From IMG/VR virus record IMGVR_UViG_3300027887_000011, positions 7,557 to 71,556 of that record: a stretch of DNA of 64,000 nucleotides; one strand, given 5' to 3'. The first letter of the stretch is position 1; every line of letters starts with the position of its first letter. Source of the stretch: a virus. Its lineage: Duplodnaviria > Caudoviricetes. Positions 26,078-59,233 of this stretch are shown piece by piece. The notes beneath the pieces were generated by a model that was given only the letters and a program-made list of their open reading frames with translations, was not told where the DNA came from and made no database searches. Both the position numbers and the translations under genes were made by a program.

Positions 26078-26821
26078 ATGAAATCTATTCCTGTTTTAGG
26101 TACACTCGTACTAAATCGAGGCGATTTATTACTACGCCTTTTCGAAAGTATCGATTATCCTGTCGATGAGTTTGTAATTATAAATAATGGCAATAAAGCT
26201 GACGTAAAGGCCGCTATCGATCAGATAACAGCCAAGTACCCAACTAAAGTCACCGTCCATACACCAGGAAAGAATACCGGGGTAGCGGGAGGATGGAATT
26301 GGATATTCACACATTTCGATAAGCCATGGTATTTTATCGCCGGCAATGATGTAATGTTTACTCCAGGGGATTTAGACAAAATGGTCTCAGCAGCCTGGAA
26401 TGAATATGAAACAATTGGCATGTTGTTTGGTAACCAAGGACATAACGCCTATATTATGACAAAAGCTTGTCTGGATAAGGTTGGCTTATTCGATGAGAAT
26501 TTCTATCCAGCGTATTTAGAAGACTGTGACTATTCCCGAAGAATGGGACTTTTAGATATGCATGCTCGGGATGTTCAGGATTGCCACATCATTCATGGAG
26601 AAGCTCCGTTATGGGGTTCGTCGACTATCCATTCGGATCCGCGGTTCAGAACGATGAATGGTATAACACACGGAAATGGATTTAAATATTATCGTAAAAA
26701 ATGGGGCGGAGAGAATGGTAAAGAGGTATATACTGTGCCATACAACGATCCAAGGCTAACACCGCGGGACTGGGTATTTGACCCAGAGTGGAGAAAACTT
26801 AATGACATATGGGGAGCATAA
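26078..26821 (+). CDS. GT2-like glycosyltransferase
   Basis: VIINNG, GVAGGWN, GNDVMF, GLFDENFYPAYLEDCDY. Confidence 0.8.
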   Translation: MKSIPVLGTLVLNRGDLLLRLFESIDYPVDEFVIINNGNKADVKAAIDQITAKYPTKVTVHTPGKNTGVAGGWNWIFTHFDKPWYFIAGNDVMFTPGDLDKMVSAAWNEYETIGMLFGNQGHNAYIMTKACLDKVGLFDENFYPAYLEDCDYSRRMGLLDMHARDVQDCHIIHGEAPLWGSSTIHSDPRFRTMNGITHGNGFKYYRKKWGGENGKEVYTVPYNDPRLTPRDWVFDPEWRKLNDIWGA

Positions 26822-26825
26822 TTAA

Positions 26826-27803
26826 ATGAAAAGAGCACTTGTAACAGGTATAGCAGGAATGGATGGTTCTCATATGGCGGACCTTCTTCTATCAAAAGGA
26901 TATAACGTCTGGGGCCTTGAACGACACAGATCAAATACCAATAGAGTTAATATCAAACACATTGAAAATCAAATACATCTAATACAAGGAGATCTTGCAG
27001 ACCAGGGCTCTTTATATTCAGCAATCGATCAGGCACAGCCTGACGAGATATACAACTTTGCTGCACAATCATTTGTAGGAGATAGTTGGAATCTAGCTGA
27101 ACAAACATCCAACATTACCGGGATGGGCGTATTAAGAATGTTAGAGGCCATTAGACTTATAAAGCCCAGCATTAAATTCCATCAAGCTTCTTCATCTGAA
27201 ATGTTTGGGAAGCACGGGGTACAGGTAGTTAACGAGAATACGGTTTTTCATCCTCGTAGTCCTTACGCAGTTTCTAAGGTTTATGGCCATTATATTACTC
27301 AAAACTTTAGAGAATCGTATGGTATGTTTGCCTGCTCTTCGATTTGTTTCAACCATGAATCTGAACGACGTGGGTATCAATTCGTCACACGTAAAATTAC
27401 AGATGCTGTTGCACGCATTCATTATAAAGTGGAAAATACAATCCATTTGGGTAATCTAGATGCGAAACGCGACTGGGGATATGCTCCAGAATATTGTGAA
27501 GGTATTTGGCGTATGATGCAGCAGGATCAGCCCGATGACTTTATCTTTGCTACAGGAGAAGCCCATTCGGTTGAAGAGTTTGTCATCGAAGCTTTTGCTA
27601 CGGTAGGCATAGAAAATTGGAGAGACTATATCACAATTAACCCGATGTATATGCGTCCCGCAGAAGTGGATTATCTGCTTGGAGACTGGTCGAAGGCTAA
27701 AGAAGTCCTTCACTGGGAACCTAAAGTTCGATACAAGGAATTAGTAAAGCGGATGATGTTCAACGATTTAACGTTAGTAAGGAATGAACTCAATGGAAAA
27801 TAA
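26826..27803 (+). CDS. gmd: GDP-mannose 4,6-dehydratase
   Basis: ALVTGIAGMDGS, YNFAAQSFV, QASSSEMFG, PRSPYAVSK, FNHESERRG..FVTRKI, GNLDAKRDWG. Confidence 0.92.
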   Translation: MKRALVTGIAGMDGSHMADLLLSKGYNVWGLERHRSNTNRVNIKHIENQIHLIQGDLADQGSLYSAIDQAQPDEIYNFAAQSFVGDSWNLAEQTSNITGMGVLRMLEAIRLIKPSIKFHQASSSEMFGKHGVQVVNENTVFHPRSPYAVSKVYGHYITQNFRESYGMFACSSICFNHESERRGYQFVTRKITDAVARIHYKVENTIHLGNLDAKRDWGYAPEYCEGIWRMMQQDQPDDFIFATGEAHSVEEFVIEAFATVGIENWRDYITINPMYMRPAEVDYLLGDWSKAKEVLHWEPKVRYKELVKRMMFNDLTLVRNELNGK

Positions 27804-29007
27804 AATATACAAGGAACGTATTACATGTCGCCTATGTGGAAATTCTCTAGAAACTGTTCTAGATCTAGGCAATATATATTTGAATGACTTCGTGGACGAA
27901 GGAAAAGAAATTGTTTCAGCACCACTAACTCTGGTAAAGTGTACATCCTGCGAACTTGTACAGTTGAAGCATACTCCAGATCTTGATCTTCTTTATCGCC
28001 AATACTGGTATCAATCCAGTCTTAACAAGAGTATGATCGCTGCCCTTCAGGATATCGTAGATAATATCGAAAAACGCGTTACCCTTTATCCGGGAGATAC
28101 TGTTATTGATATTGGCTGTAATGATGGGACTATGTTAGGACAGTATCATAATCCAAACCTAGTGCGAATCGGATTCGATCCGGCATTGAATCTTGCCGAA
28201 AAAGCAAAAAAGCATTGTGACTTTTTCTATAACACATACTTTGGAGATGTCTCTATCTATACACCCCCGGCAAAGGTTATCACCTCAATTGCCATGTTCT
28301 ATGATCTAGAGGATCCCCATACATTCATTGAGCTAGTGAAACGTTCTCTTGCTCCAGACGGTATCTGGGTTATTCAGTTTACAGATCTTCTCTCCATGTT
28401 CAAAATCAATGCATTTGATAATGTCTGCCACGAACATCTGGAATACTACTCATTTAAAGTTCTTCGTAATCTTATGTATCATCATGGACTGGAGATCTTT
28501 GATGTATCAACAAATGATGTTAACGGTGGAAGCATTCGGGCCTATATTGCTTGGAAGGGTGCTCGTACTGTAGAGACCTCCGTGTATAATCTGATTAACG
28601 AAGAAGCTAGCTATATGATTTCTTTTGAAGATCCATTCAAAGCATTTGCAGACCGAGTTCAAAAGATTAAGGACTTTGTCGTAGGCTTTATTAAAGAACA
28701 AAATGCGGCAGGAAAGACTGTAGCTGCTATGGGAGCATCAACAAAAGGAAATACTCTTCTACAGTATTTTGGCCTTACAAGTGAATATATTAAATATGCG
28801 GGAGAGGTAAACGCCGATAAATTTGGTAAGAAAACTGTAGCTACGAACATCCCAATTATTTCTGAAGCCGATGCCGTTGCTCAGAAGCCGGATTACTTTC
28901 TGCTTCTACCGTGGCATTTCAAAAAAGGTATTCTTACAAAGAATCAAGCATATAGGGATGCCGGCGGTAAGTTTATTATTCCATGTCCAGAACCTGAGGT
29001 TATTTAA
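27793..29007 (+). CDS. NDP-sugar C-methyltransferase
   Basis: CRLCG/CTSC Zn site, DIGCNDG, CHEHLEYYS, NGGSIR, GASTKGNTLL, LLPWHF. Confidence 0.88.
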   Translation: MENKIYKERITCRLCGNSLETVLDLGNIYLNDFVDEGKEIVSAPLTLVKCTSCELVQLKHTPDLDLLYRQYWYQSSLNKSMIAALQDIVDNIEKRVTLYPGDTVIDIGCNDGTMLGQYHNPNLVRIGFDPALNLAEKAKKHCDFFYNTYFGDVSIYTPPAKVITSIAMFYDLEDPHTFIELVKRSLAPDGIWVIQFTDLLSMFKINAFDNVCHEHLEYYSFKVLRNLMYHHGLEIFDVSTNDVNGGSIRAYIAWKGARTVETSVYNLINEEASYMISFEDPFKAFADRVQKIKDFVVGFIKEQNAAGKTVAAMGASTKGNTLLQYFGLTSEYIKYAGEVNADKFGKKTVATNIPIISEADAVAQKPDYFLLLPWHFKKGILTKNQAYRDAGGKFIIPCPEPEVI

Positions 29008-29630
29008 TGTATAGTGATAGCGAATTTGATTCAGCTAAATTTGTGACTCAATTTATAAGTATGGCTAGTGGTATTTATGTCGATGTTGGGGCAGGATTTC
29101 CCGAGCACGGCTATACCGCACATACGTTATTTAGAAATACACCGAATTGGCGTATCATCGCTATCGAGGCTAATCCCGAAATGTGTAAACAATATAGGGG
29201 ACGAGGCTATGAAATTTATGAATATGCAGCAACAGATTCTGATTTGGGCAGGGTATCTTTTGACATTTATACTTCTCATGAGGGATTAGGCGGCTCTTGT
29301 ATAACCAGTCAAAATGTACAACATATGGGCGAGGATAGAACTCGCTGTATAAATATTGGCTTTCTCAGAAGTATAGAAGTTACTGCTCTTACGTTGAATA
29401 CTATTTTAGCAACACACTGTCCTGAAGTTACTCATATCAATGTTCTAAATGTAGATGTAGAATATTCGGAATTACAGGTTTTACGGGGACTGGATTTCGA
29501 AAAATATAGCCCTGATATAATGATCATCGAATGTTTAGGTAATAACCCTGCATATCAGGATTATTTTGATCAGCTAGGTTACAAGGTCGTGGCCCAAGCA
29601 GGGCCAAACAAAATCTTAATAAGGAAATAA
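29007..29630 (+). CDS. FkbM-family methyltransferase
   Basis: YVDVGAG, IEANP, LNVDVEYSELQVL. Confidence 0.8.
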   Translation: MYSDSEFDSAKFVTQFISMASGIYVDVGAGFPEHGYTAHTLFRNTPNWRIIAIEANPEMCKQYRGRGYEIYEYAATDSDLGRVSFDIYTSHEGLGGSCITSQNVQHMGEDRTRCINIGFLRSIEVTALTLNTILATHCPEVTHINVLNVDVEYSELQVLRGLDFEKYSPDIMIIECLGNNPAYQDYFDQLGYKVVAQAGPNKILIRK

Positions 29631-30544
29631 TGGATACTGTATTCTTCATAAATCATATACAAAAACAATGTGGTGTATACCAATTTGGCTATCACATTGG
29701 AACAGTTATATCAAAGTCTACAAACTTCGATATTAAATATCTGGAGTGTAGCTCCGTTGCGGAATTACGTCAGCACATTTCGGCGCATTTACCCAAGACT
29801 ATTATCTATAATTTCTATCCAAGTACTCTTGGGTGGTGTGTTAGTATGCCGGCGTTACACCCCGAAATTCGGCATATATTGATTCGCCACGAACCTGAAC
29901 CCTGGGGCCTTCCTGCAGGATTTGAAGAGATATATCCGGATCCAACAGAACCAGAAATTCCGGGGAAATGGAAAACTGGAAGACTTGTAAAGCCGTATGA
30001 TAATAAGTATCCAACTCCAGAGATCCCGACATTCGGAAGCTTTGGCTTTGTCTTTGGAAAAAGCTTTGGCTGGGTGATACAGTTAGTAGAAAAAGAATAT
30101 GATCAGGCTATTGTAAATCTACATATACCTGCAGCACATTTTGGAGATTCCGATGGAGCTGGGGCACGAAAAGCAGCCGCCGAAGCGAGAAGCTATGTAA
30201 CAAAACCTGGTATACAGCTAAACATCACTCATGACTTTCTAAGCCCCGACGATCTTATCGAATTCCTTGCAAAGAATTCGCTGAATATATTCTGCTATGA
30301 TATAAATTGGGGACGAGGTATTTCAAGTACCATAGATTACGCTCTTACCGCCAGGCGGCCGATTGCTATAACAGATTCCCGTCAATTTAAACATCTGGAT
30401 GGAATAAAGAATCTGCTATGTATTCCGACGTATACAACTATAAAAGCTATTTTAGAACGCGGTATATCTCCTTTGCGTATCTATCAACAAGCGTGGGCTC
30501 CAGAAAATCTATTGAAATCGTATGAAAGGATTCTCCGTGGTTAA
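29630..30544 (+). CDS. GT-B-like putative glycosyltransferase (paralogue A)
   Basis: FGSFGF, GISSTIDYALTARRPIAIT; resembles the nucleotide-binding half of GT-B enzymes. Confidence 0.55.
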   Translation: MDTVFFINHIQKQCGVYQFGYHIGTVISKSTNFDIKYLECSSVAELRQHISAHLPKTIIYNFYPSTLGWCVSMPALHPEIRHILIRHEPEPWGLPAGFEEIYPDPTEPEIPGKWKTGRLVKPYDNKYPTPEIPTFGSFGFVFGKSFGWVIQLVEKEYDQAIVNLHIPAAHFGDSDGAGARKAAAEARSYVTKPGIQLNITHDFLSPDDLIEFLAKNSLNIFCYDINWGRGISSTIDYALTARRPIAITDSRQFKHLDGIKNLLCIPTYTTIKAILERGISPLRIYQQAWAPENLLKSYERILRG

Positions 30545-31424
30545 AGTAATGTTTGTTAATAACGTGCCCGATGCATGCGGCGTGAAACAGTTTGGCCTAC
30601 GAGTTTATGATGTCCTCTCGAAGTCCACAAAGTTCAAAACACAATTAGCTGCATGTTATAATGCGGATGATCTTATCCGGGAGGGTCGAAATACCGATGC
30701 TGACACCATACTCTATAATTTTCATTCTCTTACTATTCCTTGGGCTAATGATGAATTCCTAGCACAGCATCCTAATAAGCGTCATATAGCCATCGTTCAT
30801 GAGCCAGGAATGGTAGTATCAAAAAGAATGAATCGTGTGATTCCTCAGGATACATTGCCTCGAGTACTATCAGAATGTCCAGATACTTATGTGGATCGGG
30901 GAGTTCCGGTCATAGGTTCTTTCGGCTTTGCATCATGGCATAAAGGGTTCCATAACCTTATTCTTAAAATACAGAATGAATTTGATGAGGCTATTTTTAG
31001 ACTTCACGTCCCCGCCTCATTTTATTGTTATGACGAGAACCAGTCTCCTAGGAAGATCATAGATGAATGCCATAAGCGCATAACTAAGCCTGGGATAAGT
31101 ATTGAAGCAGATACTGATTTCTTTACTGAGACGGAGTTACTGGAATGGCTTAACAAGAATACATTAAATGCATTTCATTATGAACCTCTTCCATATGATC
31201 CAGGAATTAGTAGTGTAGTTGACTACGCGCTAAGTGCCAGACGTCCGCTAGCTATTACAAAATCTCCTATGTTTAGGCATCTTGTAGGAGCTACCCCTTC
31301 GATTTGTATGGAGGATAATTCACTGAAGACTATTATCGAGAACGGCTTAACACCCTTATATCCTTTCTATGATAGATGGTCTGTTGAAAATGCGGTCAAA
31401 TATTGGGAGGATGTTCTGTGTTAA
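30537..31424 (+). CDS. GT-B-like putative glycosyltransferase (paralogue B)
   Basis: IGSFGF, GISSVVDYALSARRPLAIT; GTG start 30537 chosen by alignment with paralogue A. Confidence 0.55.
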   Translation: MVKVMFVNNVPDACGVKQFGLRVYDVLSKSTKFKTQLAACYNADDLIREGRNTDADTILYNFHSLTIPWANDEFLAQHPNKRHIAIVHEPGMVVSKRMNRVIPQDTLPRVLSECPDTYVDRGVPVIGSFGFASWHKGFHNLILKIQNEFDEAIFRLHVPASFYCYDENQSPRKIIDECHKRITKPGISIEADTDFFTETELLEWLNKNTLNAFHYEPLPYDPGISSVVDYALSARRPLAITKSPMFRHLVGATPSICMEDNSLKTIIENGLTPLYPFYDRWSVENAVKYWEDVLC

Positions 31425-32218
31425 AAGTTGATATCGTTATGCAGGGCCCCATCTGGAGCAAGACATACACAACTGCAGAATCGTATTTAACTCTAGCGTG
31501 GGTAAATCGAGTTATTATATCCACCTGGGAAGGACAAAAATCCTGGGATACAAACTATCGTATCTCAGTAATAAAATCAAAAGATGTAACGAATCCCGGA
31601 GGAAATAATCGTAACAGACAGCTCTTTTCATCACAGATAGGGGTTAATGTTTGTACTGCCGATCTGATTATGAAGACTCGCACAGACCAACAAATTGATA
31701 TACCAAGTATGAAGAAGATGTATGATTACTTTATGAAGCATTATAAAATTGATAAGAAATTTCTCGATGGGACAGGCCCCAAGGGAGCAATTTTTACTAT
31801 TGGCTTATACTCGGGCTACGTGTTCCATCCCCAAGACCATCTCTTCCTGGGATTTCGAGAGGATATACAAAAGCTTTTTGATCTTCCATTAGACCCAGAT
31901 GTTCCACCAGATCCAAAGAATCCTACAGATTTATATGGAAGTTCTTTTACACATAATGCTACTAGACCCAATGCTTATCTAGGGATGTATTACTATGCCA
32001 GATTTGATGAGCAGATTAAATACATGGTAGAGCATTATAGGGACTTTATCGTAGATCAGGCGCCAGGGAGGGCAGAAGCATTTGCAGCAGAAGCTCCGTA
32101 TCGAGATGTGATCTTTAAAGCATTTCCTCGTATAAATTTGTGGTGGGAAAAATATAATCAACCTTATCCGTATGAAGTGGGTCATGGATATTCAGAATAT
32201 TGTGGAAAGGAATGGTAA
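31418..32218 (+). CDS. WavE-like protein
   Basis: DIVMQGPI, IISTWEG, KTRTDQ, FHPQDHLFLG; GGAGG before GTG 31418. Confidence 0.65.
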   Translation: MLKVDIVMQGPIWSKTYTTAESYLTLAWVNRVIISTWEGQKSWDTNYRISVIKSKDVTNPGGNNRNRQLFSSQIGVNVCTADLIMKTRTDQQIDIPSMKKMYDYFMKHYKIDKKFLDGTGPKGAIFTIGLYSGYVFHPQDHLFLGFREDIQKLFDLPLDPDVPPDPKNPTDLYGSSFTHNATRPNAYLGMYYYARFDEQIKYMVEHYRDFIVDQAPGRAEAFAAEAPYRDVIFKAFPRINLWWEKYNQPYPYEVGHGYSEYCGKEW

Positions 32219-32898
32219 TGAAAGTCGCATTGATTTTTAGAGGTAAGTGCACAAAGATTAGTAACGCACTAAAGAGCGCTGGCCAGACAGTTAGTGGGCT
32301 TGATTGCTTCCATAATTGGAACGGTGTTATGCTAGAAGATCTAAAGGCTCACAACATTCCATACGATGTAATTTTGATATCCTATCCATCACAGCATCTT
32401 ACAGAACTGTCTGAAAAAATGGGTGCAAAGGAAGTTATAACCGGTGGTTATTCTGATCAAGTACAGAATTTACGTTATGTCGCTAATTATATGGTAGCTC
32501 ACAAAGACGAATACGATATCTTTGTTCTATCAAGATTCGACTTTAAATATAAGCGTAGAATCACAACCTGGCCTCTATGGGGTTCTCCAAACGTTGTTCT
32601 TACAGGACGAGATATTGCCTGGCCCTCGAACCGCCTCTACCATGATTTTCTATTTGTAGTAGGAGCCCCCTCTGCCTCATTCTTTAAAACAGCAGCTGAT
32701 AATGCAACGGCTAATGGGCATGAGATTGGTAGAAATCTCTATAATATGAAAGCTCCAATGGAGATTATGTATAGAGATTATTATCATGCGACACCACACC
32801 CGCTACTATCGTGCATTGATTGTGAAGATGAGCCAGATCTAGATAACCCGCTACATGCGGATCCATGTTATCCAGATGGCTGGGACAGGGAGTATTAA
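32218..32898 (+). CDS. putative GT-A-like transferase
   Basis: KVALIFRG, YDIFVLSRFDF, DFLFV; sits in the glycan cluster. Confidence 0.45.
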   Translation: MKVALIFRGKCTKISNALKSAGQTVSGLDCFHNWNGVMLEDLKAHNIPYDVILISYPSQHLTELSEKMGAKEVITGGYSDQVQNLRYVANYMVAHKDEYDIFVLSRFDFKYKRRITTWPLWGSPNVVLTGRDIAWPSNRLYHDFLFVVGAPSASFFKTAADNATANGHEIGRNLYNMKAPMEIMYRDYYHATPHPLLSCIDCEDEPDLDNPLHADPCYPDGWDREY

Positions 32899-33623
32899 TG
32901 AACATTCTAATTCCAATGGCAGGCCGTGGAGACCGTTTTAGAAATGGTGGTTATGCTAATACTAAGCCTCTCATAGACATAGCTGGGCAACCCATGATAC
33001 AGAGGGCTGTAGAATCTGTAGGATTGCCTGGCCAGTATATCTTCATTGTTAGTAAAATAGATAACCAGATAGAAGAAGTGAAGGCTTTATTGAAGACCAT
33101 TACACATAAGCCCATCATCATCGAGATTGATTTTGTAACAGATGGTCCAGCTAGCTCTTGTTTGTTAGCAAAAGAATATATCAATAATGATACTCCCCTG
33201 GTTATAATGAACTGTGATCAAATTATGAAATGGAATAGCAGGGTTTTTTATGCTACCATTTCTGTCACTACATTAGATGGTTTAGTAGTCACCTACAACA
33301 CAAACATTGGGAAGAACAGTTATGTAAGATTAGATGAACAAGGTTTTGCTACTGAGTTCGCTGAAAAGAGGGTTATTAGTCCCTATTCTCTCAATGGCAT
33401 TCATTTCTGGAAAAAGGGTTCAGACTTTGTATATTCCGCGGAACGAATGATCGAAAAAAATCTCAGGACTAATAACGAATTCTATGTATCTACAACCTAT
33501 AATGAGTTGATCGAAGATGGAAAGAAGATCGGTATCTACGATATACCTCCATCTGAACATTGGGCAGTAGGAACGCCAGAAGATTTAGAGCGGTATATGA
33601 GGTTGAATCATGGAAGTCTATAA
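32898..33623 (+). CDS. sugar-phosphate nucleotidyltransferase
   Basis: ILIPMAGRGDRF...TKPLIDI, TDGPA, MNCDQ, AEK, NEFYVS..YN, GTPEDL. Confidence 0.85.
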   Translation: MNILIPMAGRGDRFRNGGYANTKPLIDIAGQPMIQRAVESVGLPGQYIFIVSKIDNQIEEVKALLKTITHKPIIIEIDFVTDGPASSCLLAKEYINNDTPLVIMNCDQIMKWNSRVFYATISVTTLDGLVVTYNTNIGKNSYVRLDEQGFATEFAEKRVISPYSLNGIHFWKKGSDFVYSAERMIEKNLRTNNEFYVSTTYNELIEDGKKIGIYDIPPSEHWAVGTPEDLERYMRLNHGSL

Positions 33624-33930
33624 ACTCGATGACTACAATGGTGGCTGGTTCATAGGTAACTTTGATCCCAGTGTCTTCAAGACTGATGCTTTTGAAGTAT
33701 GCTTTAAGAAACATAAAAAAGGAGAAAAGTGGAACACCCATTATCACAAGTTAGGTACGGAGATTAACTACCTTATACGGGGTACTATGACGATACAGGG
33801 TGTCACGCTTTCTGCTGGAAATGTTTTCGTACTAAAACCGATGGAAGTTTCCGATCCCATTTTCCTCGAGGATTGCGAACTGATAGTTGTTAAGACCCCG
33901 TCTATACCAGGAGATAAGTATGATCTTTAG
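33610..33930 (+). CDS. cupin-domain protein
   Basis: GWFIGNF, THYHK..TEIN, LIVVKTPS..GDKY. Confidence 0.7.
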   Translation: MEVYKLDDYNGGWFIGNFDPSVFKTDAFEVCFKKHKKGEKWNTHYHKLGTEINYLIRGTMTIQGVTLSAGNVFVLKPMEVSDPIFLEDCELIVVKTPSIPGDKYDL

Positions 33931-35095
33931 AAACGAGATAGATCCCGACAAGTATATCATTGTAAAGTATTATCTGCAGGCACGTACCAATCTAAGAGAT
34001 TCCTCCTGGGAACTGGCAATTGGTCAAAGTGTAGGGAATCCGAATACGAGAAGTCGTTGGGAAACAGACGCTCTCTTCGAGAACCATTCCTGTATTGTAA
34101 AGGGTTCCGAAACGGAATTAGAGAGAAGGGGCAGTGGAATTGTTGAAATAGGGTTTCCGGTCGTGAATATAGATTGGGATACAGATGGTATCTCCCAGTT
34201 CCTCTGTTTTATCATGGGCGGGCAGACAGACATAGACAATACACTGGCTTGTCATGTGCTGGATGTTACCTTCCCCAAGAGTATTGAGACGAAGTTCCTT
34301 AAGCCATCCTTTGGACTGAGTGGCTTCAGGAAGTTTACCGGAGTCTATGATAAGCCACTCTTTGGGGGAATCATCAAGCCAAAGACGGGTATCTCCAGCG
34401 ACACCCTCCTTAATATGGTAAAGGAAATGGTCGAGGGAGGGGTTAACTTTATCAAAGAGGACGAGATTCTATCCAACCCAGCCTTCTGTCGTATCGAAGA
34501 ACGGGTTCCGAAGATTATGAAGTACCTGGAGGGAAAATCTGTTATCTATTCGGTATGTATTAATGCGGATCATGCCTATATTCTAGACAGGGTAAAGAGG
34601 GTTCATGAGCTGGGAGGAAACAGCGTTCATGTGAATTTCTGGGCCGGCCTGGGAGTTTATAAGTCCATTCGAGAACTTAATCTGCCTATCTTTCTTCATG
34701 TTCAGAAAAGTGGCTCCAAGATACTAACACATGTCGACAATAAGTTTAGAATTAGTTGGTATGTATTTTGTAAGCTATGTGCGGTAATGGGAGTAGATTC
34801 TATTCATGCAGGTATGCTTGGTGGATACTCCGACGACAATCCGGAGGAGATGAAGAGTGTTATGGAAATGCTTTTATCCTATGATGTCACTCCAGTATTG
34901 AGCTGTGGAATGAATCCAGGCTTGGTGGGATATGTGAATGAAAGAATAGGAACGAACTATATGGCTAACGTGGGAGGAGCTCTTCACGGCCATCCTTCTG
35001 GAACCTATTCCGGGTGCCTAGCGATGCGCCAAGCAATTGATGGGAATTATGGAAAGGAATATGAGGAAGCTATAAAGAAATGGGGGAAAAGATAA
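33920..35095 (+). CDS. RuBisCO-like protein (form IV-type)
   Basis: GGIIKPKTG, FIKEDE, DSIHAG, PVLSCG, GGALHGHPSG...AMRQA. Lacks the E60, N123, H294 and K334 equivalents of true RuBisCO. AGGAG before ATG 33920. Confidence 0.9.
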   Translation: MIFRNEIDPDKYIIVKYYLQARTNLRDSSWELAIGQSVGNPNTRSRWETDALFENHSCIVKGSETELERRGSGIVEIGFPVVNIDWDTDGISQFLCFIMGGQTDIDNTLACHVLDVTFPKSIETKFLKPSFGLSGFRKFTGVYDKPLFGGIIKPKTGISSDTLLNMVKEMVEGGVNFIKEDEILSNPAFCRIEERVPKIMKYLEGKSVIYSVCINADHAYILDRVKRVHELGGNSVHVNFWAGLGVYKSIRELNLPIFLHVQKSGSKILTHVDNKFRISWYVFCKLCAVMGVDSIHAGMLGGYSDDNPEEMKSVMEMLLSYDVTPVLSCGMNPGLVGYVNERIGTNYMANVGGALHGHPSGTYSGCLAMRQAIDGNYGKEYEEAIKKWGKR

Positions 35096-35739
35096 TGGTT
35101 TTGAATATAAATAATCATGTGGTTGAGGTGACGGAGCAACCAACTGATATACGAGGATTGAAATTTCGTCCTCAGATGAGATACCATGATAATGATGCAG
35201 ATTGGTCTATCTTTACAAAACCTTGTCCGCGGGAAGTGTCACCTGCTGATCATTCTGTAGTTGAAGAAGCGATTAAAGATCATATGACACATGCTATTGT
35301 CGAGATCGGAGTTGGTGGCATTCACAGGCCACTAGAGGGATCATTCACAGAATTGTTATTGGCCAAGAAGCCGGACGAGATTCCCTATTTAGGTATAGAC
35401 TGTGAAGATAAGACATATTTACGAAATGAAGCAAAGAAGGTATTCACGGTGACAGCATTCTCTAATGAACAGCAGAAGATTAGGGAATGTATGAAATCCA
35501 TTGGTATTGAGGAAATATCGATTCTCTTTATTGATGGATTTCATTCCGTGAATGCCGTAATTAACGATTGGCAATACACAGATATGTTGGCAGATGGCGG
35601 AATCGTGATATTTCACGATACCAATTATCATCCCGGTCCCAAGGTGTTCATTCATGCCATAGACGAGCAACTATATAGGATAGAACGCTGCTGCCAAGAG
35701 GTAGATGATTATGGAGTGGCAATAGCCTATAAACTATGA
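35095..35739 (+). CDS. class I SAM methyltransferase (Methyltransf_24-like)
   Basis: IVEIGVG, LFIDGFHS, IVIFHDTN. Confidence 0.75.
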   Translation: MVLNINNHVVEVTEQPTDIRGLKFRPQMRYHDNDADWSIFTKPCPREVSPADHSVVEEAIKDHMTHAIVEIGVGGIHRPLEGSFTELLLAKKPDEIPYLGIDCEDKTYLRNEAKKVFTVTAFSNEQQKIRECMKSIGIEEISILFIDGFHSVNAVINDWQYTDMLADGGIVIFHDTNYHPGPKVFIHAIDEQLYRIERCCQEVDDYGVAIAYKL

Positions 35740-35845
35740 TAACTATTCCCAAAGATTCAAAGCAGCTTGCAGATATATTCTTTCCGCTATTTCTCCTGAG
35801 CATCTTGGTAGATTTGAGAAGAAATTATACTTTATTGGAGAAAAT

Positions 35846-36400
35846 ATGTTAGGCGAAATTAATGAGCGTGGAGAATTACATAAATTAATCAACTTTCTTG
35901 GCCTGAAGACCGGTGTTGAGGTAGGAGTTCAGAAGGCGGAGTATTCTAAATATCTTCTGGATAATACCAAACTCTTTCTTTATCTTGTTGATGTGTGGCA
36001 AGAGCAGACGGGTTATATGGATCCCGCAAATGTTTCAACAGCTAAGCAGGAAGGTTATATGCAAGAAGCTATTGAGCGTTTAAAACCGCATGAGGGTCGC
36101 TATCAAATAATTCGTAAATTCTCTGTCGATGCCGCACAGGATATTGCCGACGAATCGCTTGATTTTATATACATCGATGCAATGCATACCTGGAAAGCTG
36201 TTACCGCAGATCTTAATGCCTGGTATCCAAAGCTTAGGAAGGGCGGCCTAATGTCTGGCCATGATTTTTTCAATGACTACGGAAGTTATCATCAGATGTG
36301 TTTTGAAGTCAAGAATGCTGTCTTAGAATTCATAGAAGGAAAAGATATAACATTATATGTCACTCAGGAAGGGTTTCCATCATGGTATTGGGTAAAATGA
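35846..36400 (+). CDS. class I SAM methyltransferase (Methyltransf_24-like)
   Basis: GVEVGV, DFIYIDAMH, GGLMSGHD. Confidence 0.8.
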   Translation: MLGEINERGELHKLINFLGLKTGVEVGVQKAEYSKYLLDNTKLFLYLVDVWQEQTGYMDPANVSTAKQEGYMQEAIERLKPHEGRYQIIRKFSVDAAQDIADESLDFIYIDAMHTWKAVTADLNAWYPKLRKGGLMSGHDFFNDYGSYHQMCFEVKNAVLEFIEGKDITLYVTQEGFPSWYWVK

Positions 36401-36864
36401 TACTAATCTCCCATAGGGGCAATATTACAGGACGGGATATTGAAAAAGAAAATTCCCCCGCTTATATTCTCTCTGCTTTGGAAGCAGGCTTTGAGGTGGA
36501 GACTGATGTATTCTATATAGCAGGTGGATTGTATTTAGGCCATAACTCTCCTTGTTATCCCGTGGAGCTCGAGTTTCTAAAGCATGAACATTTATGGTGC
36601 CATGCAAAGACTCCAGAAACACTTATCTATCTAAGAGCTCGGCCCGAGATACATAGTTTTTATCACGATATGGATACGTGCACACTAACCTCAAAGGGAT
36701 TTATTTGGACGTTTAACGGAAATCTTCTCGCGAACACGATCTGTGTGTTACCGGAGAAATACTTCGAGCCAGAAGAACTAAAGATCTGTACAGGAATATG
36801 CAGCGATACTATACTAACATACAAAGGACATTATGAGAAAATCGATTCTAATTATCAACTATGA
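36397..36864 (+). CDS. truncated GDPD/PLC-like phosphodiesterase-fold protein
   Basis: LISHRGN, ENSP.YI..AL..GFEVETDV, YLGHN, LWCHAK, GICSD. Confidence 0.7.
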   Translation: MILISHRGNITGRDIEKENSPAYILSALEAGFEVETDVFYIAGGLYLGHNSPCYPVELEFLKHEHLWCHAKTPETLIYLRARPEIHSFYHDMDTCTLTSKGFIWTFNGNLLANTICVLPEKYFEPEELKICTGICSDTILTYKGHYEKIDSNYQL

Positions 36865-37531
36865 AACCGAGGGTATCAATCCTCGTCTATGTGCTAATAG
36901 CAGAGCCTCTGTTATGGCCGCGTGCGAGCGATGGGGGTGTGATTTTATAGAGATCAATCATTCTAATACCAAACTTACATTAGCCCCGGCAGCTGAAAAA
37001 ACAAAGCTCTTTAATGAGATCGAAGGTGAACATGTTCTTGTATTGGATAGCGATGTTGTTATAAACTCTACAGCTCCAAGTCCATTCGAAGTTTTTCCAG
37101 AAGACTGTATGACCGTTATTCAAAATGCCACTCCTCGTCATGGTCAATATGGTATTGTTAAACAAATTGAACGAGAGGAATGGTCTAAAGTTGAGGGGGA
37201 ATATGGCCCAGTTGAATATGTACCCGAGCATTATTTTAATACTGGTGTAATGCTTGTGAGAAAGGATCTCCATACGGAAGTCTTTAAAATGGCTAAGGAA
37301 ATTCATCAAGGATTGTCTGTAAAAAACATCGGTCTAAATTGGTGTGACCAGACGCCTATAAACTACGCTACCAAGAAGCTGGGTATCAAAATGAATTATG
37401 CAGGAGATGAATGGAACTATGTCCTTCCTTCTGATCTTGGTCCTGACTGGTTACAAATGAAAGCCCACATTTATCACCTGGCTGGAATGCCGGCACGTAA
37501 TGAATTGTTACCGAGGATTTTGTGGAAATGA
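36833..37531 (+). CDS. GT8-like glycosyltransferase
   Basis: LVLDSDVVI, YFNTGVML, DQTPINY, WNY, IYHLAG. Confidence 0.75.
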   Translation: MRKSILIINYETEGINPRLCANSRASVMAACERWGCDFIEINHSNTKLTLAPAAEKTKLFNEIEGEHVLVLDSDVVINSTAPSPFEVFPEDCMTVIQNATPRHGQYGIVKQIEREEWSKVEGEYGPVEYVPEHYFNTGVMLVRKDLHTEVFKMAKEIHQGLSVKNIGLNWCDQTPINYATKKLGIKMNYAGDEWNYVLPSDLGPDWLQMKAHIYHLAGMPARNELLPRILWK

Positions 37532-38343
37532 AAATTACAGTAGTTATTCCGACACGCAATGATAACTTTGGAGGCAACCTTATAGAGACTGCCTCTTATA
37601 CACTTAATACAATGTCTAATACTTTTGATGAGGTTATTCTAGTAGACTTTGGATCTGATGAACCAATTTATCCGGTACTGGCCCCGCTTATTACGAATAA
37701 ACGTGGGAACATTAGAATTATAACCACTCCCAAACTAGGAGAGGAACAGACCTTTTCAGATATATTAGCTAGAAATGTTGGAATACGCCGAGCAACAAAT
37801 GATATTATACTATCTTCAAATGTAGATATTATACCTGCCCTTCCGGAGGACTTTGATTTTTCACAGTTTGATGAAAATGTTTTCTACAGTTCAGGTAAGT
37901 ATATGCTAGAACACAGTCTTATTACTTCTCTTCGTTCTCAGGGTAAGTCGTGGGAAGAGATTCAAAAGTATCTCTTCCAAACTCGAGAAAGTTATCCTCG
38001 CCAGGGTTTATTCAATGACGATCCTTGGTCCAAAGTGAGTGGCTGTGGAGATTTTCAACTGGGGCACAGAAAGATTTGGTTTGACGATAGGGTGCGCGGA
38101 TTTGAAGAAACTCTTCGCTTTAAGGATTATACTGATACAAATCTACATAAAAAAATAATAGCAAACGCTGGGTACGAAGTTCGTGTGGCTATGTACTTTC
38201 ATGTGTTCCATCAATCACATATTGATATTCGTGGAACGGCAAAGGCCAATGATGGACAAAAAGCAGTACATGCTTTTTTGCAGACTTCGAATCCAGATAC
38301 GTGGGGATTCTCTGATATGATCTTTAAGGAATATGTACTATGA
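37528..38343 (+). CDS. GT-A (GT2-like) glycosyltransferase
   Basis: VVIPTRND, LVDFGS, RNVGIRRA..DIILSSNVDII, GCGDFQL. Confidence 0.7.
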   Translation: MKITVVIPTRNDNFGGNLIETASYTLNTMSNTFDEVILVDFGSDEPIYPVLAPLITNKRGNIRIITTPKLGEEQTFSDILARNVGIRRATNDIILSSNVDIIPALPEDFDFSQFDENVFYSSGKYMLEHSLITSLRSQGKSWEEIQKYLFQTRESYPRQGLFNDDPWSKVSGCGDFQLGHRKIWFDDRVRGFEETLRFKDYTDTNLHKKIIANAGYEVRVAMYFHVFHQSHIDIRGTAKANDGQKAVHAFLQTSNPDTWGFSDMIFKEYVL

Positions 38344-39002
38344 AATTACTTGTAGGAATACCTGCATATAACGAAGAGCGAACTATTACAAAGACCCTGG
38401 AACGCGTAATGAGCACCTCCTGGCCAGTTCGGGTAATTGTATGTGATGGGAATTCTTCTGATAATACAAGGTCGATAGCACTTCAAAAAAAAGCTGAGGT
38501 ATTATATACCCCTTCTTATGGAGACTCCATTCAAACGGCTTTTAGAGAGGCTTCTAATGAAGACTATGTAATTATCCTTGATTGTGAGAGTCATAATGCA
38601 TTGGAGATGTACGACGCTCTTAGTGAAATGAAAGATAAAAAAATCCATCATTATCTGGTTGCCGGATATAGAGATAGATACACAGCTACTCGTATACGAA
38701 AGCTTATTACCTTATTAGCGCGATGGTATATACACCGACTATTTACAGTTGAGACTATCGATATAACAAGCGGCTTTCGTGCCTATCCCATTTCATTTGT
38801 AAAAAATGTACGCGACAACAATGCACTTTTTGCCGCACCAAATTATGTAATCAATGTAAATCTAGCATTAGAGGCACACCGTTTAGGGTATAATACCTAT
38901 AACTTTATTATGACATATACAGGCGGACAAAGTGCTCTTACGTTAAAGAAGTTCGTCAAATCTCTTTGGTGGGGATTAAAGTTACTAAGGAAACGCGTAT
39001 GA
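38340..39002 (+). CDS. GT2 (DPM-synthase-like) glycosyltransferase
   Basis: IPAYNEERTI, DGNSSDNT, DITSGFRAY; the DxD motif is degenerate (LDCE). Confidence 0.7.
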   Translation: MKLLVGIPAYNEERTITKTLERVMSTSWPVRVIVCDGNSSDNTRSIALQKKAEVLYTPSYGDSIQTAFREASNEDYVIILDCESHNALEMYDALSEMKDKKIHHYLVAGYRDRYTATRIRKLITLLARWYIHRLFTVETIDITSGFRAYPISFVKNVRDNNALFAAPNYVINVNLALEAHRLGYNTYNFIMTYTGGQSALTLKKFVKSLWWGLKLLRKRV

Positions 39003-39892
39003 ACTTCTTCAATGTTCGACAGTTAAATAATGTAAAGTGTTCTTATGACACGGAGATTTTTGCGCCTGAATATTTTGGTACCTTCTATCCTAAAGAGTAT
39101 ATTGCAGAAGACATAAAAAAGGATTTTGTTTCTAGTCGGCCGCCCGGATATAAATTGGGTCCTGTTTCTCCCGGATCCTTTAGCCGATTGCCAGACGGGG
39201 TTATTTTATCTGACGATATCTACGATGAATCTGAAATTGAAGTCATGGTACAGTTATCGCTTTTACAAGAAATACAGGATACCGAAATTATATTTTTAGA
39301 GTTAGGGGCTGGCTATGGAGCACAATCTTTACGAATGCATGGAGCAGTAAAAAATCAAGTTGTGCCTATGAGGGTAAAAAACTGTATTTGTGTTGGCGTA
39401 GAAGGGTTTCCAGAATACTTCCAGCAACTTCAGAATACTTTTAAAATCAATGCAGTTACAGGACAAGCTATATTTGGTGGCGTAAGTTATGAGGATGGAG
39501 AAACTCCTTTTTATACTAAAGTAGGAAAAGGAAATTATGGTTGTTCTGTACATAGTTCTGGGGATATAACAATCCCATGTTTTAAATTAGATACGCTTAT
39601 TCAAAAACTTGGTTATCCCCATATTCATGTTATTGATATGGATATACAGGGACTAGAGAATCTAGTAGTATCAAACTCAGAGTTTATACTAAAAGGCAAG
39701 GTAGATTATCTTAAGATTTCGATACATGATCCAAAGTATCCTACGTTTTTCTTAGAGTTGCTAGAGGATCTATACGAGTGTATTCTGGATATTCGCCAAG
39801 AACCTTCACCCCATTTTTGTGAGGTAAAGGAATTAAATTGTAAAACATATATTGCCGACGGTCTTATGATTTTTCGTAGAAGGATAAAATAA
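38999..39892 (+). CDS. FkbM-like methyltransferase
   Basis: FLELGAGYG, GVEG, FKLDTL, IDMDIQGLE. Confidence 0.75.
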   Translation: MNFFNVRQLNNVKCSYDTEIFAPEYFGTFYPKEYIAEDIKKDFVSSRPPGYKLGPVSPGSFSRLPDGVILSDDIYDESEIEVMVQLSLLQEIQDTEIIFLELGAGYGAQSLRMHGAVKNQVVPMRVKNCICVGVEGFPEYFQQLQNTFKINAVTGQAIFGGVSYEDGETPFYTKVGKGNYGCSVHSSGDITIPCFKLDTLIQKLGYPHIHVIDMDIQGLENLVVSNSEFILKGKVDYLKISIHDPKYPTFFLELLEDLYECILDIRQEPSPHFCEVKELNCKTYIADGLMIFRRRIK

Positions 39893-40116
39893 TGGAAATC
39901 AAATCAATTGGAACGCTTATAGACGAACTTATTACAACGTCAATGAAATGTTGGTATGCGCAGGAAACAGTTATGAATGAAACAGATGTCAATAAGGTAG
40001 CCGCTGCAGCCAAACAAGCCCAGCAACTCAACGCTCGTCGCAATAAACTTATTCGGGCAATTGATGAACGACTGGGAGATGGAGCTATTACATTAACGGA
40101 AAAGACTTATGCCTAA
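39892..40116 (+). CDS. small helical protein (DUF4254-like)
   Basis: SIGTLIDEL...WYAQE...NARRNKLIRAIDE; precedes a GT9-like gene. Confidence 0.5.
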   Translation: MEIKSIGTLIDELITTSMKCWYAQETVMNETDVNKVAAAAKQAQQLNARRNKLIRAIDERLGDGAITLTEKTYA

Positions 40117-58843: not shown

Positions 58844-59233
58844 TGGTGGACCTGGGGGTATCGAAACCCCGTCCGATCGTCGACCTAGTTTGTCGAATTA
58901 GCATGCTTTGATTCCAGATACGAGCTCTTCATCATAAGAACTTCTAGGCTAATCATGTATGTTCTTACAACTATCCAGTCTTTCCTGGATGTCCTAGTCC
59001 CAACTTACACAGACAGTATGACTATGTTCGTGTCTATGTTCAGACCGTGTCCTGCTTAAGCCGTAGCGAAAGCGGGTACAACGTTCTTCTGCCCAAGGGC
59101 TTTGCCGAAGGTGAAGATGTCTGCGAATGTGCTGTTGTTCTTCGCACTTATGTTTTTGACAGTATTTAAGTGGTCCATCGCCACTGCATGCCGACTCCCC
59201 TCATCATACAACCGTCGAATCCAAGTCAGGCCC
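58844..59233 (-). ncRNA. ssrA: tmRNA (390 nt)
   Basis: 5' GGGCCUG pairs with 3' CAGGUCC-A-CCA with G3.U; GGAUUCGAC after the acceptor stem; GGACGGGGUUUCGA T-arm (slightly non-canonical); AUAAGU before resume codon GCG; tag ORF 59145-59056. Confidence 0.92.

What the first reader, a model, noticed from the sequence alone, without database searches (positions are those of the whole stretch)
32898..36864. RuBisCO-like protein embedded in a phage nucleotide-sugar cassette
Seen: overlapping genes for a sugar nucleotidyltransferase, a cupin and an RLP, then two methyltransferases and a GDPD-fold protein. The RLP keeps K175/K177 (IKPK), the carbamylation/Mg motif as KEDE, H327, S379 and the GG..HP phosphate loop, but has Q at E60, no N123, Q-K for H294-R295 and no K334. 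Established: form IV RLPs catalyse enolisation, isomerisation and decarboxylation chemistry on sugar-phosphate or sugar-acid substrates (methionine salvage, tetronate and apionate catabolism). Inference: here the RLP works biosynthetically, making an unusual (possibly branched) sugar phosphate that the neighbouring transferase activates for the glycosyltransferases. I know of no characterised RLP pathway of this kind.
Basis: partly seen in the sequence, partly recalled or inferred. Interest (0 to 1): 0.8.

Follow-up and report, generated by a model that had tools for sequence, protein, structure and literature searches.

The report
Phage RuBisCO-like enzyme in sugar-activation module
A large phage carries an intact RuBisCO relative that cannot fix CO2 and is almost always wired, and sometimes fused, to a nucleotide-attaching enzyme inside surface-sugar gene clusters, so it most likely helps build an unusual activated sugar unit, a role never shown for this enzyme family.

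Summary
Window 32898-36864 (+) encodes six overlapping or abutting genes: a nucleotidyltransferase (NTase), a small metal cupin, a RuBisCO-like protein (RLP), two Methyltransf_24 methyltransferases and a 150-aa miniature GDPD-fold protein. They lie in a ~15-kb glycan island of a tailed phage.

The RLP belongs to a large, well-supported clade (SH-aLRT 99-100, long stem). It lies outside sampled form III, MtnW-like and OiaX-like sequences. This is the 'Form IV-like' phage/Beckwithbacteria group of Jaffe et al. 2019, whose function is still unknown.

Among 66 in-clade locus groups with 6 kb or more on both sides:
- 64 carry the same 4EVW-like NTase subfamily
- 54 carry the mini-GDPD
- 39 carry the cupin

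NTase-RLP, RLP-NTase, NTase-cupin and HAD-NTase arrangements occur as fusions or direct adjacency. The module is found in phages, giant-virus MAGs, SAR11, DPANN archaea and Legionellaceae, where a LicD gene lies beside it.

A biosynthetic, nucleotide-activation-coupled role is well supported. The substrate, the order of steps and any 'branched sugar' remain inference. This scan has already found the same module on other DNA, so the module is not new to the scan, and the clade itself is published.

The parts
32898..33623 (+). Nucleotidyltransferase of the 4EVW-like subfamily. The longest ORF starts at 32865; the probable start is the ATG at 32898.
   Evidence: Pfam NTP_transferase and NTP_transf_3 score above their cut-offs. 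The family profile hits PDB 4EVW at 7e-33 and RmlA/ManC/HddC/GlmU at 1e-10 to 1e-6. PxAGxGxRF, DQ and EK motifs are conserved. Start checked.
33610..33930 (+). Small single-domain metal cupin (106 aa)
   Evidence: H44, H46 and E51 are invariant as HxH(x)4E. The profile hits quercetinase and small Cupin_2 structures at 3e-7 to 1e-4. Cupin_7 or Cupin_2 is matched by 22 and 14 of 25 members.
33920..35095 (+). RuBisCO-like protein of the 'Form IV-like', NTase-linked clade (391 aa)
   Evidence: PF00016 E=1e-35. All NCBIfam equivalogs score far below their cut-offs. AlphaFold2 pLDDT 87, Z 42. Residue table. Clade support.
35080..35739 (+). Methyltransf_24 methyltransferase directly after the RLP
   Evidence: Pfam hit. 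Homologues lie within 8 kb of the RLP in 22 of 105 locus groups, with a median gap of 18 nt. Some methyltransferase lies within 100 nt in 25 of 105 groups.
35846..36400 (+). Second Methyltransf_24 methyltransferase
   Evidence: Pfam E=2.5e-13
36382..36864 (+). Miniature GDPD-fold protein. The probable start is the ATG at 36397 (MILISHRGN).
   Evidence: Present in 54 of 66 full-flank in-clade locus groups.
26078..40116 (+). Surrounding glycan island. It holds GT2, an NDP-hexose 4,6-dehydratase (26826-27803), a sugar C-methyltransferase (27784-29007), FkbM methyltransferases, two probable GT-B transferases (29630-31424), a WavE-like gene (31403-32218), orf232 (32200-32898) and two GT2 genes (37522-39002).
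   Evidence: Pfam. ESM Atlas leads for 29630-31424. hhalign gives 80% probability between orf232 and the recurrent 250-aa neighbour family.

Best explanation
The NTase, cupin, RLP and mini-GDPD (plus adjacent O-methyltransferases) form one conserved biosynthetic module. It makes a nucleotide-activated, unusual sugar or sugar-phosphate unit for a surface or virion glycan.

Shown here: the RLP keeps the superfamily's enolisation machinery (the carbamylatable K201, Mg ligands D203 and E204, K175/K177, H327) and the P1 phosphate cradle (G381, G403, G404). It has lost every residue specific to CO2 addition and to RuBP recognition.

Inferred: it enolises a phosphorylated keto-sugar, acting as an isomerase, epimerase or tautomerase rather than a carboxylase. 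I judge the following order the more likely, at about 50 against 35. A ketose mono- or bisphosphate from central or nucleotide metabolism is rearranged by the RLP. In many lineages it is then trimmed by the cupin and a phosphoesterase (mini-GDPD or a HAD domain). The NTase then couples it to NMP. The resulting NDP-X is handed to transferases, which in Legionellaceae probably include a LicD-type phospho-unit transferase, and the unit is O-methylated. The reverse order is the main variant: NTase first, with the RLP acting on an NDP-keto-sugar.
For: Linkage:
- 64 of 66 in-clade locus groups with at least 6 kb on both sides carry the same NTase subfamily, 54 the mini-GDPD and 39 the cupin.
- Among all 105 groups, the NTase lies within 500 nt in 73.

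Fusions and direct adjacency:
- NTase-RLP (P0156) and RLP-NTase (P0162).
- A 353-aa NTase-cupin ORF in a giant-virus MAG.
- HAD-NTase proteins, and HAD domains directly before the RLP-linked NTase.

Specificity: RuBisCO homologues outside the clade (L050-L055) lack the NTase.

Breadth: phages and GVMAGs, and a complete Pelagibacter genome, DPANN archaea, Patescibacteria, Verrucomicrobia and Legionella.

Context is always glycan genes:
- LPS-core and heptose genes in Pelagibacter.
- LicD conserved beside RLP-NTase in four Legionellaceae.
- Glycosyltransferases and methyltransferases in the window.

Active site: the residue pattern is invariant across the clade.

Order of steps:
- Two-gene RLP+NTase modules in DPANN and Legionella have no oxidoreductase that could create a keto group on an NDP-aldose.
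- The cupin is statistically independent of the 4,6-dehydratase (18 of 39 against 12 of 27, p=1.0) but goes with the mini-GDPD (37 of 39 against 17 of 27, p=0.002, uncorrected for phylogeny).
Against: - No substrate, product or activity is known for any member of the clade.
- The NTase most resembles anomeric sugar-1-phosphate nucleotidyltransferases (EK motif; RmlA, ManC and HddC hits). Such substrates are not typical RLP products, which favours the NTase-first order.
- A 4,6-dehydratase and a sugar C-methyltransferase in the window could supply an NDP-4-keto substrate.
- The LicD link rests on one bacterial family of close relatives.
- Two in-clade loci with full flanks (L006, L065) have no NTase.
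- Co-occurrence statistics were not corrected for shared ancestry.
Confidence: 0.68

Rival explanations
1. NTase-first variant. The NTase makes an NDP-hexose and a 4,6-dehydratase oxidises it. The RLP, with the cupin, then acts on the NDP-4-keto-6-deoxy-sugar as a new kind of keto-isomerase or epimerase, ahead of C- and O-methylation.
For: - The NTase resembles sugar-1-phosphate NTases.
- The window has a 4,6-dehydratase and a TylC3-type C-methyltransferase and no other NTase.
- A dehydratase lies within 8 kb in 30 of 66 locus groups.
- Small cupins often isomerise NDP-4-keto sugars (established knowledge).
Against: - The dehydratase is absent from more than half of the loci and from minimal RLP+NTase modules.
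- Cupin presence is independent of the dehydratase (p=1.0).
- No RuBisCO-family enzyme is known to bind a nucleotide-linked substrate.
Confidence: 0.24
2. Salvage or catabolic auxiliary gene. The RLP, a phosphoesterase (HAD or mini-GDPD) and the cupin would copy the MtnW-MtnX-MtnD logic of methionine salvage, or another sugar-acid catabolic route. The NTase would be incidental.
For: - All characterised RLPs are catabolic or salvage enzymes (Jaffe et al. introduction; NCBIfam names).
- The fold trio RLP + phosphoesterase + metal cupin parallels MtnW/MtnX/MtnD (the parallel itself comes from my own knowledge).
Against: - No MtnA, MtnB or MtnK partners, kinases or transporters recur.
- NTase fusions exist in both orders.
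- The neighbourhoods are always glycan-building genes.
- MtnW and OiaX NCBIfam models score far below their cut-offs.
- The cupin shows no specific similarity to acireductone dioxygenase.
Confidence: 0.05
3. A working, divergent form III-type carboxylase used by the phage to recycle nucleotides into 3-phosphoglycerate.
For: The best NCBIfam and PDB scores are to form III. Fusions of e2b2 with form III exist elsewhere.
Against: - K334, H294, R295, E60, T65, W66 and N123 are all replaced throughout the clade.
- rubisco_III scores 161 bits against a cut-off of 497.
- The clade sits outside form III on a long, fully supported branch.
- No AMP phosphorylase or R15P isomerase gene lies nearby.
Confidence: 0.02

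Closest known systems
'Form IV-like' RuBisCO-related proteins of phages and Beckwithbacteria (Jaffe, Castelle, Dupont & Banfield 2019, Mol Biol Evol; PMC6389311)
   Same: Phage-encoded, highly divergent from other RLPs, with partial retention of key residues. My tree puts the window protein in one subclade with a Beckwithbacteria MAG sequence (L013) and a second Patescibacteria MAG sequence (L010).
   Different: That paper left the function 'unclear'. In the passages I read it does not mention the NTase, cupin or GDPD module, the fusions, or the spread to SAR11, DPANN archaea, Legionella and giant viruses. I did not align against their sequences.
MtnW/YkrW 2,3-diketo-5-methylthiopentyl-1-phosphate enolase (methionine salvage RLP)
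   Same: Same fold (Z 41), the same K201/D203/E204 enolisation core, and a single-phosphate P1 site. Its operon partners are a HAD phosphatase and a cupin.
   Different: NCBIfam MtnW models score 110-136 bits against cut-offs of 409-514. It falls in a separate clade. It has no methionine-salvage neighbours and is coupled to an NTase in glycan clusters.
Form III RuBisCO of the archaeal AMP/nucleoside pathway
   Same: Best sequence and structure scores.
   Different: Eight active-site residues that form III keeps are replaced, the protein lies outside the form III clade, and the gene context differs.
OiaX and related RLPs of D-apiose catabolism (Carter et al. 2018, cited)
   Different: The OiaX model scores 124 bits against a cut-off of 700. 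An OiaX-like representative (P0271) lies outside the clade. OiaX is catabolic, not NTase-linked.
NDP-heptose pathway (GmhB HAD phosphatase then HddC/HldE NTase) and LicC/LicD phospho-unit decoration
   Same: They offer logic for HAD-NTase fusions and for a LicD gene beside RLP-NTase. HddC and LicC structures are weak hits of the NTase profile.
   Different: Neither pathway contains a RuBisCO-family enzyme. The resemblance is by analogy only.

Membership tests
RuBisCO large-subunit superfamily | N-terminal alpha/beta domain plus C-terminal TIM barrel, matching PF00016 | tested here: met
   PF00016 E=1e-35. The AlphaFold2 model aligns over 374 residues to 2CWX at Z 41.9, rmsd 2.4.
Bona fide RuBisCO (forms I-III) | Full set of catalytic and RuBP-binding residues: E60, T65, W66, N123, K175, K177, K201, D203, E204, H294, R295, H298, H327, K334, S379, G381, G403, G404 | tested here: not met
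   E60Q, T65N, W66P, N123G, H294Q, R295K, H298S and K334Y, constant across the clade.
Bona fide RuBisCO (forms I-III) | Scores above the curated NCBIfam cut-offs for rubisco_III, PRK04208 or PRK13475 | tested here: not met
   161 against 497, 143 against 438 and 98 against 489 bits.
Bona fide RuBisCO (forms I-III) | Carboxylates ribulose-1,5-bisphosphate | not testable with these tools
   Needs an enzyme assay.
Form IV RLP (functional sense: homologue lacking carboxylase residues) | Keeps the fold and Mg/carbamate core but lacks several of the 19 active-site residues | tested here: met
Characterised RLP subfamilies (MtnW/YkrW, OiaX) | Scores above the equivalog cut-off, or sits inside that clade | tested here: not met
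   MtnW models score 110 and 136 bits against 514 and 409; OiaX scores 124 against 700. MtnW-like P0210 and OiaX-like P0271 fall outside the 39-row clade, which has SH-aLRT 100.
'Form IV-like' phage/Beckwithbacteria clade (Jaffe 2019) | Phage-borne, groups with Beckwithbacteria sequences, and lies apart from the other RLP clades | tested here: met
   Phage window. It shares a 10-row subclade with Beckwithbacteria MAG L013. The clade is separated from all other sampled RuBisCO homologues.
Sugar-phosphate nucleotidyltransferase (NTP_transferase, PF00483) | Pfam score above cut-off, N-terminal GxGxR NTP loop, DQ/DN metal motif, EK sugar-phosphate motif | tested here: met
   27.4 against 21.2 bits. 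PMAGxGxRF, D118-Q119 and E167-K168 are invariant or nearly so. 4EVW at 7e-33. Substrate and nucleotide specificity were not tested.
Glycerophosphodiester phosphodiesterase (GDPD) family | HRG, EN, ExD and HD catalytic and metal motifs on a full (beta/alpha)8 barrel of about 240 aa | tested here: inconclusive
   All four motifs are invariant. The profile hits GDPDs at E=3e-4 over only the first ~55 residues. Foldseek places GDPDs on top at probability 0.99-1.0 but with TM only about 0.5, and the protein is only 150 aa. There is no Pfam hit.
Cupin superfamily (metal-binding monocupin) | Double-stranded beta-helix with a G(x)5HxH(x)3-4E motif | tested here: met
   No specific subfamily (RmlC, FdtA, ARD, PMI) stood out.

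The most novel reading that the evidence does not exclude
This clade is the first biosynthetic branch of the RuBisCO superfamily. It would be an enolising isomerase that, together with a dedicated NTase (and often a cupin and a minimal phosphodiesterase), turns a common ketose phosphate into a nucleotide-activated keto- or rearranged sugar(-phosphate). That unit would decorate the surfaces of SAR11, DPANN archaea and Legionella and the glycans made by marine phages and giant viruses, which would make it a widespread, chemically undescribed glycan building block.
Probability: 0.5. Interest if true: 0.8.

Novelty: new variant of a known kind. Interest (0 to 1): 0.62.

Why it matters
RuBisCO-like proteins are a textbook case of functional divergence, yet every characterised member works in salvage or catabolism. 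Here a very large clade has about 1,900 hits at E below 1e-10 in one search and 271 viral contigs. It is present in some of the ocean's most abundant bacteria and their viruses, and it is tied to nucleotide activation in glycan clusters.

Working out its reaction would:
- add a new reaction class to the superfamily;
- probably reveal an unknown sugar building block;
- explain what large phages gain by carrying it, whether through virion or host-surface glycan remodelling.

The module is small (two to four genes), and the bacterial carriers found include cultured Legionella and Azospirillum species and a Pelagibacter with a complete genome, so the question is directly testable.

Tried and rejected
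- Complex prediction on RLP + NTase gave no verdict (score 0.00). It is not used as evidence either way.
- tblastn of the RLP against 50,697 GenBank phage records found nothing, so no isolate phage could serve as a reference.
- Literature searches for IV-GOS, for phage or nucleotidyltransferase links, and for 4EVW gave no functional study. I could not confirm my suspicion that this is Tabita's 'IV-GOS' group.
- One of the encoding-contig look-ups found no record and two gave only short contigs.
- The recurrent 250-aa neighbour family (c5) has no Pfam or PDB match and no similarity to LicD or WavE. It shows only 80% hhalign probability to window orf232.
- The cupin could not be assigned to RmlC, FdtA, ARD or PMI types.
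- The idea that the cupin serves a 4,6-dehydratase product was tested and not supported.
- A carboxylase reading is rejected on residues and phylogeny.


Full report
**What is in the window.**
The window is part of an IMG/VR virus record (71.5 kb, linear, CheckV completeness 33%). It carries a large terminase, tail sheath, family-A DNA polymerase and ribonucleotide reductase. From about 26.0 to 40.1 kb, every gene is on the + strand and most overlap or abut. Pfam and the ESM Atlas identify these genes:
- a GT2 glycosyltransferase;
- an NDP-hexose 4,6-dehydratase;
- a TylC3-type sugar C-methyltransferase;
- FkbM methyltransferases;
- two probable GT-B transferases;
- a WavE-like protein;
- further GT2s.

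The finding's stretch sits inside this island. The NTase starts at the ATG at 32898, which shares a base with the preceding stop (TAATG) and follows AGGGAG. The other genes are:
- cupin, 33610-33930;
- RLP, 33920-35095;
- two Methyltransf_24 genes, 35080-35739 and 35846-36400;
- a 150-160-aa protein, 36382/36397-36864.

**The RLP.**
PF00016 matches at 1e-35. All curated NCBIfam equivalogs score far below their cut-offs:

| Model | Score (bits) | Cut-off (bits) |
|---|---|---|
| rubisco_III | 161 | 497 |
| MtnW (two models) | 110 and 136 | 514 and 409 |
| OiaX | 124 | 700 |

The AlphaFold2 model (pLDDT 87) superposes over its full length on form III RuBisCO (Z 41.9) and on MtnW (Z 41.1). It is essentially equidistant from the two.

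I aligned the protein with two sequences that reach or nearly reach the form III cut-offs (P0191, P0214) and with 38 clade members.
- Kept: K175/K177, K201/D203/E204, H327, S379, G381 and G403/G404.
- Replaced: E60Q, T65N, W66P, N123G, H294Q, R295K, H298S and K334Y.

The retained set is the enolisation core plus the P1 phosphate cradle. The lost set is what RuBisCO needs for CO2 addition and for gripping RuBP.

**Phylogeny.**
I built a 133-row maximum-likelihood tree (IQ-TREE, LG+G4, SH-aLRT) from 50%-identity representatives plus locus sequences. The window protein falls in a 38-39-row clade with 99-100 support on a long stem. All RuBisCO homologues sampled outside the clade were classified by NCBIfam on ten representatives. 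They include form III at or near cut-off, MtnW-like and OiaX-like proteins.

Forms I and II were too distant to enter the best 150. The tree therefore shows separation from the nearest relatives, not a full superfamily placement.

The window sequence shares a subclade with a Beckwithbacteria MAG sequence (L013). This matches the 'Form IV-like' phage/Beckwithbacteria group that Jaffe et al. 2019 described and left without a function. The enzyme's existence in phages is thus published.

**How widespread it is.**
The word-indexed search gave 1,959 proteins at E of 1e-10 or better, many from marine sources. IMG/VR holds at least 271 contigs, including giant-virus MAGs. One-genome-per-species contigs include:
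- a complete Pelagibacter chromosome and many SAR11 single-cell genomes;
- Woese-, Pace-, Nano- and Micrarchaeota;
- Patescibacteria, Verrucomicrobia, Elusimicrobia, Turneriella and Azospirillum;
- four Legionellaceae.

**The module.**
I called ORFs in 135 loci, clustered them by all-against-all BLASTP and dereplicated the loci at 90% RLP identity into 105 groups.

| Gene family | Groups (of 105) with it within 8 kb |
|---|---|
| NTase subfamily | 90 (73 within 500 nt) |
| Mini-GDPD | 71 |
| Cupin | 53 (47 within 100 nt) |
| Any of four methyltransferase families | 42 (25 within 100 nt) |

The groups without an NTase break down as follows:
- out-of-clade RuBisCO homologues (L050-L056);
- truncated contigs;
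- one high-GC locus where tblastn does find the NTase (L040);
- two genuine exceptions (L006, L065).

I then restricted the count to in-clade groups with at least 6 kb on both sides, which left 66 groups.

| Gene family | Groups (of 66) |
|---|---|
| NTase | 64 |
| Mini-GDPD | 54 |
| Cupin | 39 |
| 4,6-dehydratase | 30 |
| Methyltransferase | 32 |

Fusions and direct adjacency occur as:
- NTase-RLP (P0156, 631 aa) and RLP-NTase (P0162, 667 aa);
- a 353-aa NTase-cupin ORF in giant-virus MAGs;
- HAD-NTase proteins, with the HAD part directly preceding the RLP-linked NTase in several loci.

Gene order varies between lineages while the membership stays the same. This is strong genomic evidence for one pathway.

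**The partners.**
- NTase. The family profile hits 4EVW, an uncharacterised Vibrio cholerae 'NDP-sugar pyrophosphorylase', at 7e-33. It then hits ManC, RmlA, HddC, GlmU and, weakly, LicC and IspD. The NTP loop, the DQ motif and an EK motif are conserved.
- Cupin. It has an invariant HxH(x)4E metal motif and matches only generic small cupins.
- The 150-aa protein. It carries all four GDPD motifs (HRG, EN, ExD, GHD) and folds confidently (pLDDT 94). Structurally it finds only GDPDs at the top, at TM about 0.5.

**Context in cells.**
In the complete Pelagibacter genome, the mini-GDPD, NTase and RLP lie among heptose/LPS-core genes (GmhA, HldE parts, GT9). A HAD-NTase gene and a CMP-sugar-type transferase gene lie nearby.

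In Legionella drozanskii, a LicD-family gene sits divergently next to RLP-NTase. This triad is kept in L. nautarum, L. maceachernii and a Tatlockia MAG. LicD enzymes transfer a phospho-unit from an NDP-alcohol (established knowledge). That hints that, at least there, the product is transferred as X-phosphate rather than as a glycosyl residue.

**Order of steps.**

Points that favour RLP first:
- Every known member of the superfamily acts on small open-chain keto-sugar phosphates held by the conserved P1 site.
- Minimal RLP+NTase modules have no enzyme to put a keto group on an NDP-aldose.
- HAD and GDPD phosphoesterases and LicD fit sugar-phosphate handling.
- The cupin is independent of the 4,6-dehydratase (p=1.0) but goes with the mini-GDPD (p=0.002, uncorrected for ancestry).

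Points that favour NTase first:
- The NTase looks like an anomeric sugar-1-phosphate enzyme.
- The window carries a dehydratase and a C-methyltransferase but no second NTase.

I put these at roughly 50 to 35. Neither order is shown.

**Verdict.**
It goes beyond the evidence on substrate, order and branching.

The clade is already in the literature, and earlier agents of this scan reached the same module reading on other genomes. This window adds:
- a clean, fully intact example;
- quantified linkage;
- fusions in both orders;
- the HAD and LicD links;
- the test of cupin independence from the dehydratase.

Noticed in passing
window 58844-59233 (-): ARAGORN calls a tmRNA gene with a 29-residue tag peptide ending in ATA, inside the phage replication-gene region.
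   Followed up: no
window 41236-43311 (+): A single 691-aa ORF combines a LigD_N 3'-phosphoesterase domain, an ATP-dependent DNA ligase core with its OB domain, and DUF5661, directly after the glycan island.
   Followed up: no
proteins P0268, P0200, P0212: Unusual RuBisCO fusions lie outside the clade. P0268 is a TIR_2 domain fused to a RuBisCO large chain (583 aa). P0200 and P0212 are IF-2B-family (ribose-1,5-bisphosphate isomerase type) domains fused to form III-like RuBisCO.
   Followed up: partly
proteins P0420-P0428; L137:2758-4128; L098:6318-7673: HAD(HAD_2)-NTase fusions of about 457 aa, 44-47% identical to the window NTase, are common in marine data. In several RLP loci the HAD part directly precedes the RLP-linked NTase.
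   Followed up: partly
proteins P0309-P0413: About 500-aa proteins with two tandem NTase domains of the same subfamily are very common, for example in Azospirillum, Agrobacterium vitis and Allorhizobium. They are often annotated as 'glycosyltransferase family 2'.
   Followed up: no
L032:6788-9969 (SAR11 single-cell genome): The RLP is flanked by two NTase paralogues in the order mini-GDPD, NTase, RLP, NTase. The upstream paralogue has a degenerate NTP loop (PVAGPN..F instead of PMAGxGxRF).
   Followed up: partly
window 32200-32898 (+) and a 250-aa family in 32 of 105 locus groups: A recurrent neighbour family has an LSGQxR...YDxVIRxRxD pattern and no Pfam or PDB match. The gene just upstream of the window NTase is a weak relative (hhalign probability 80%).
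   Followed up: partly
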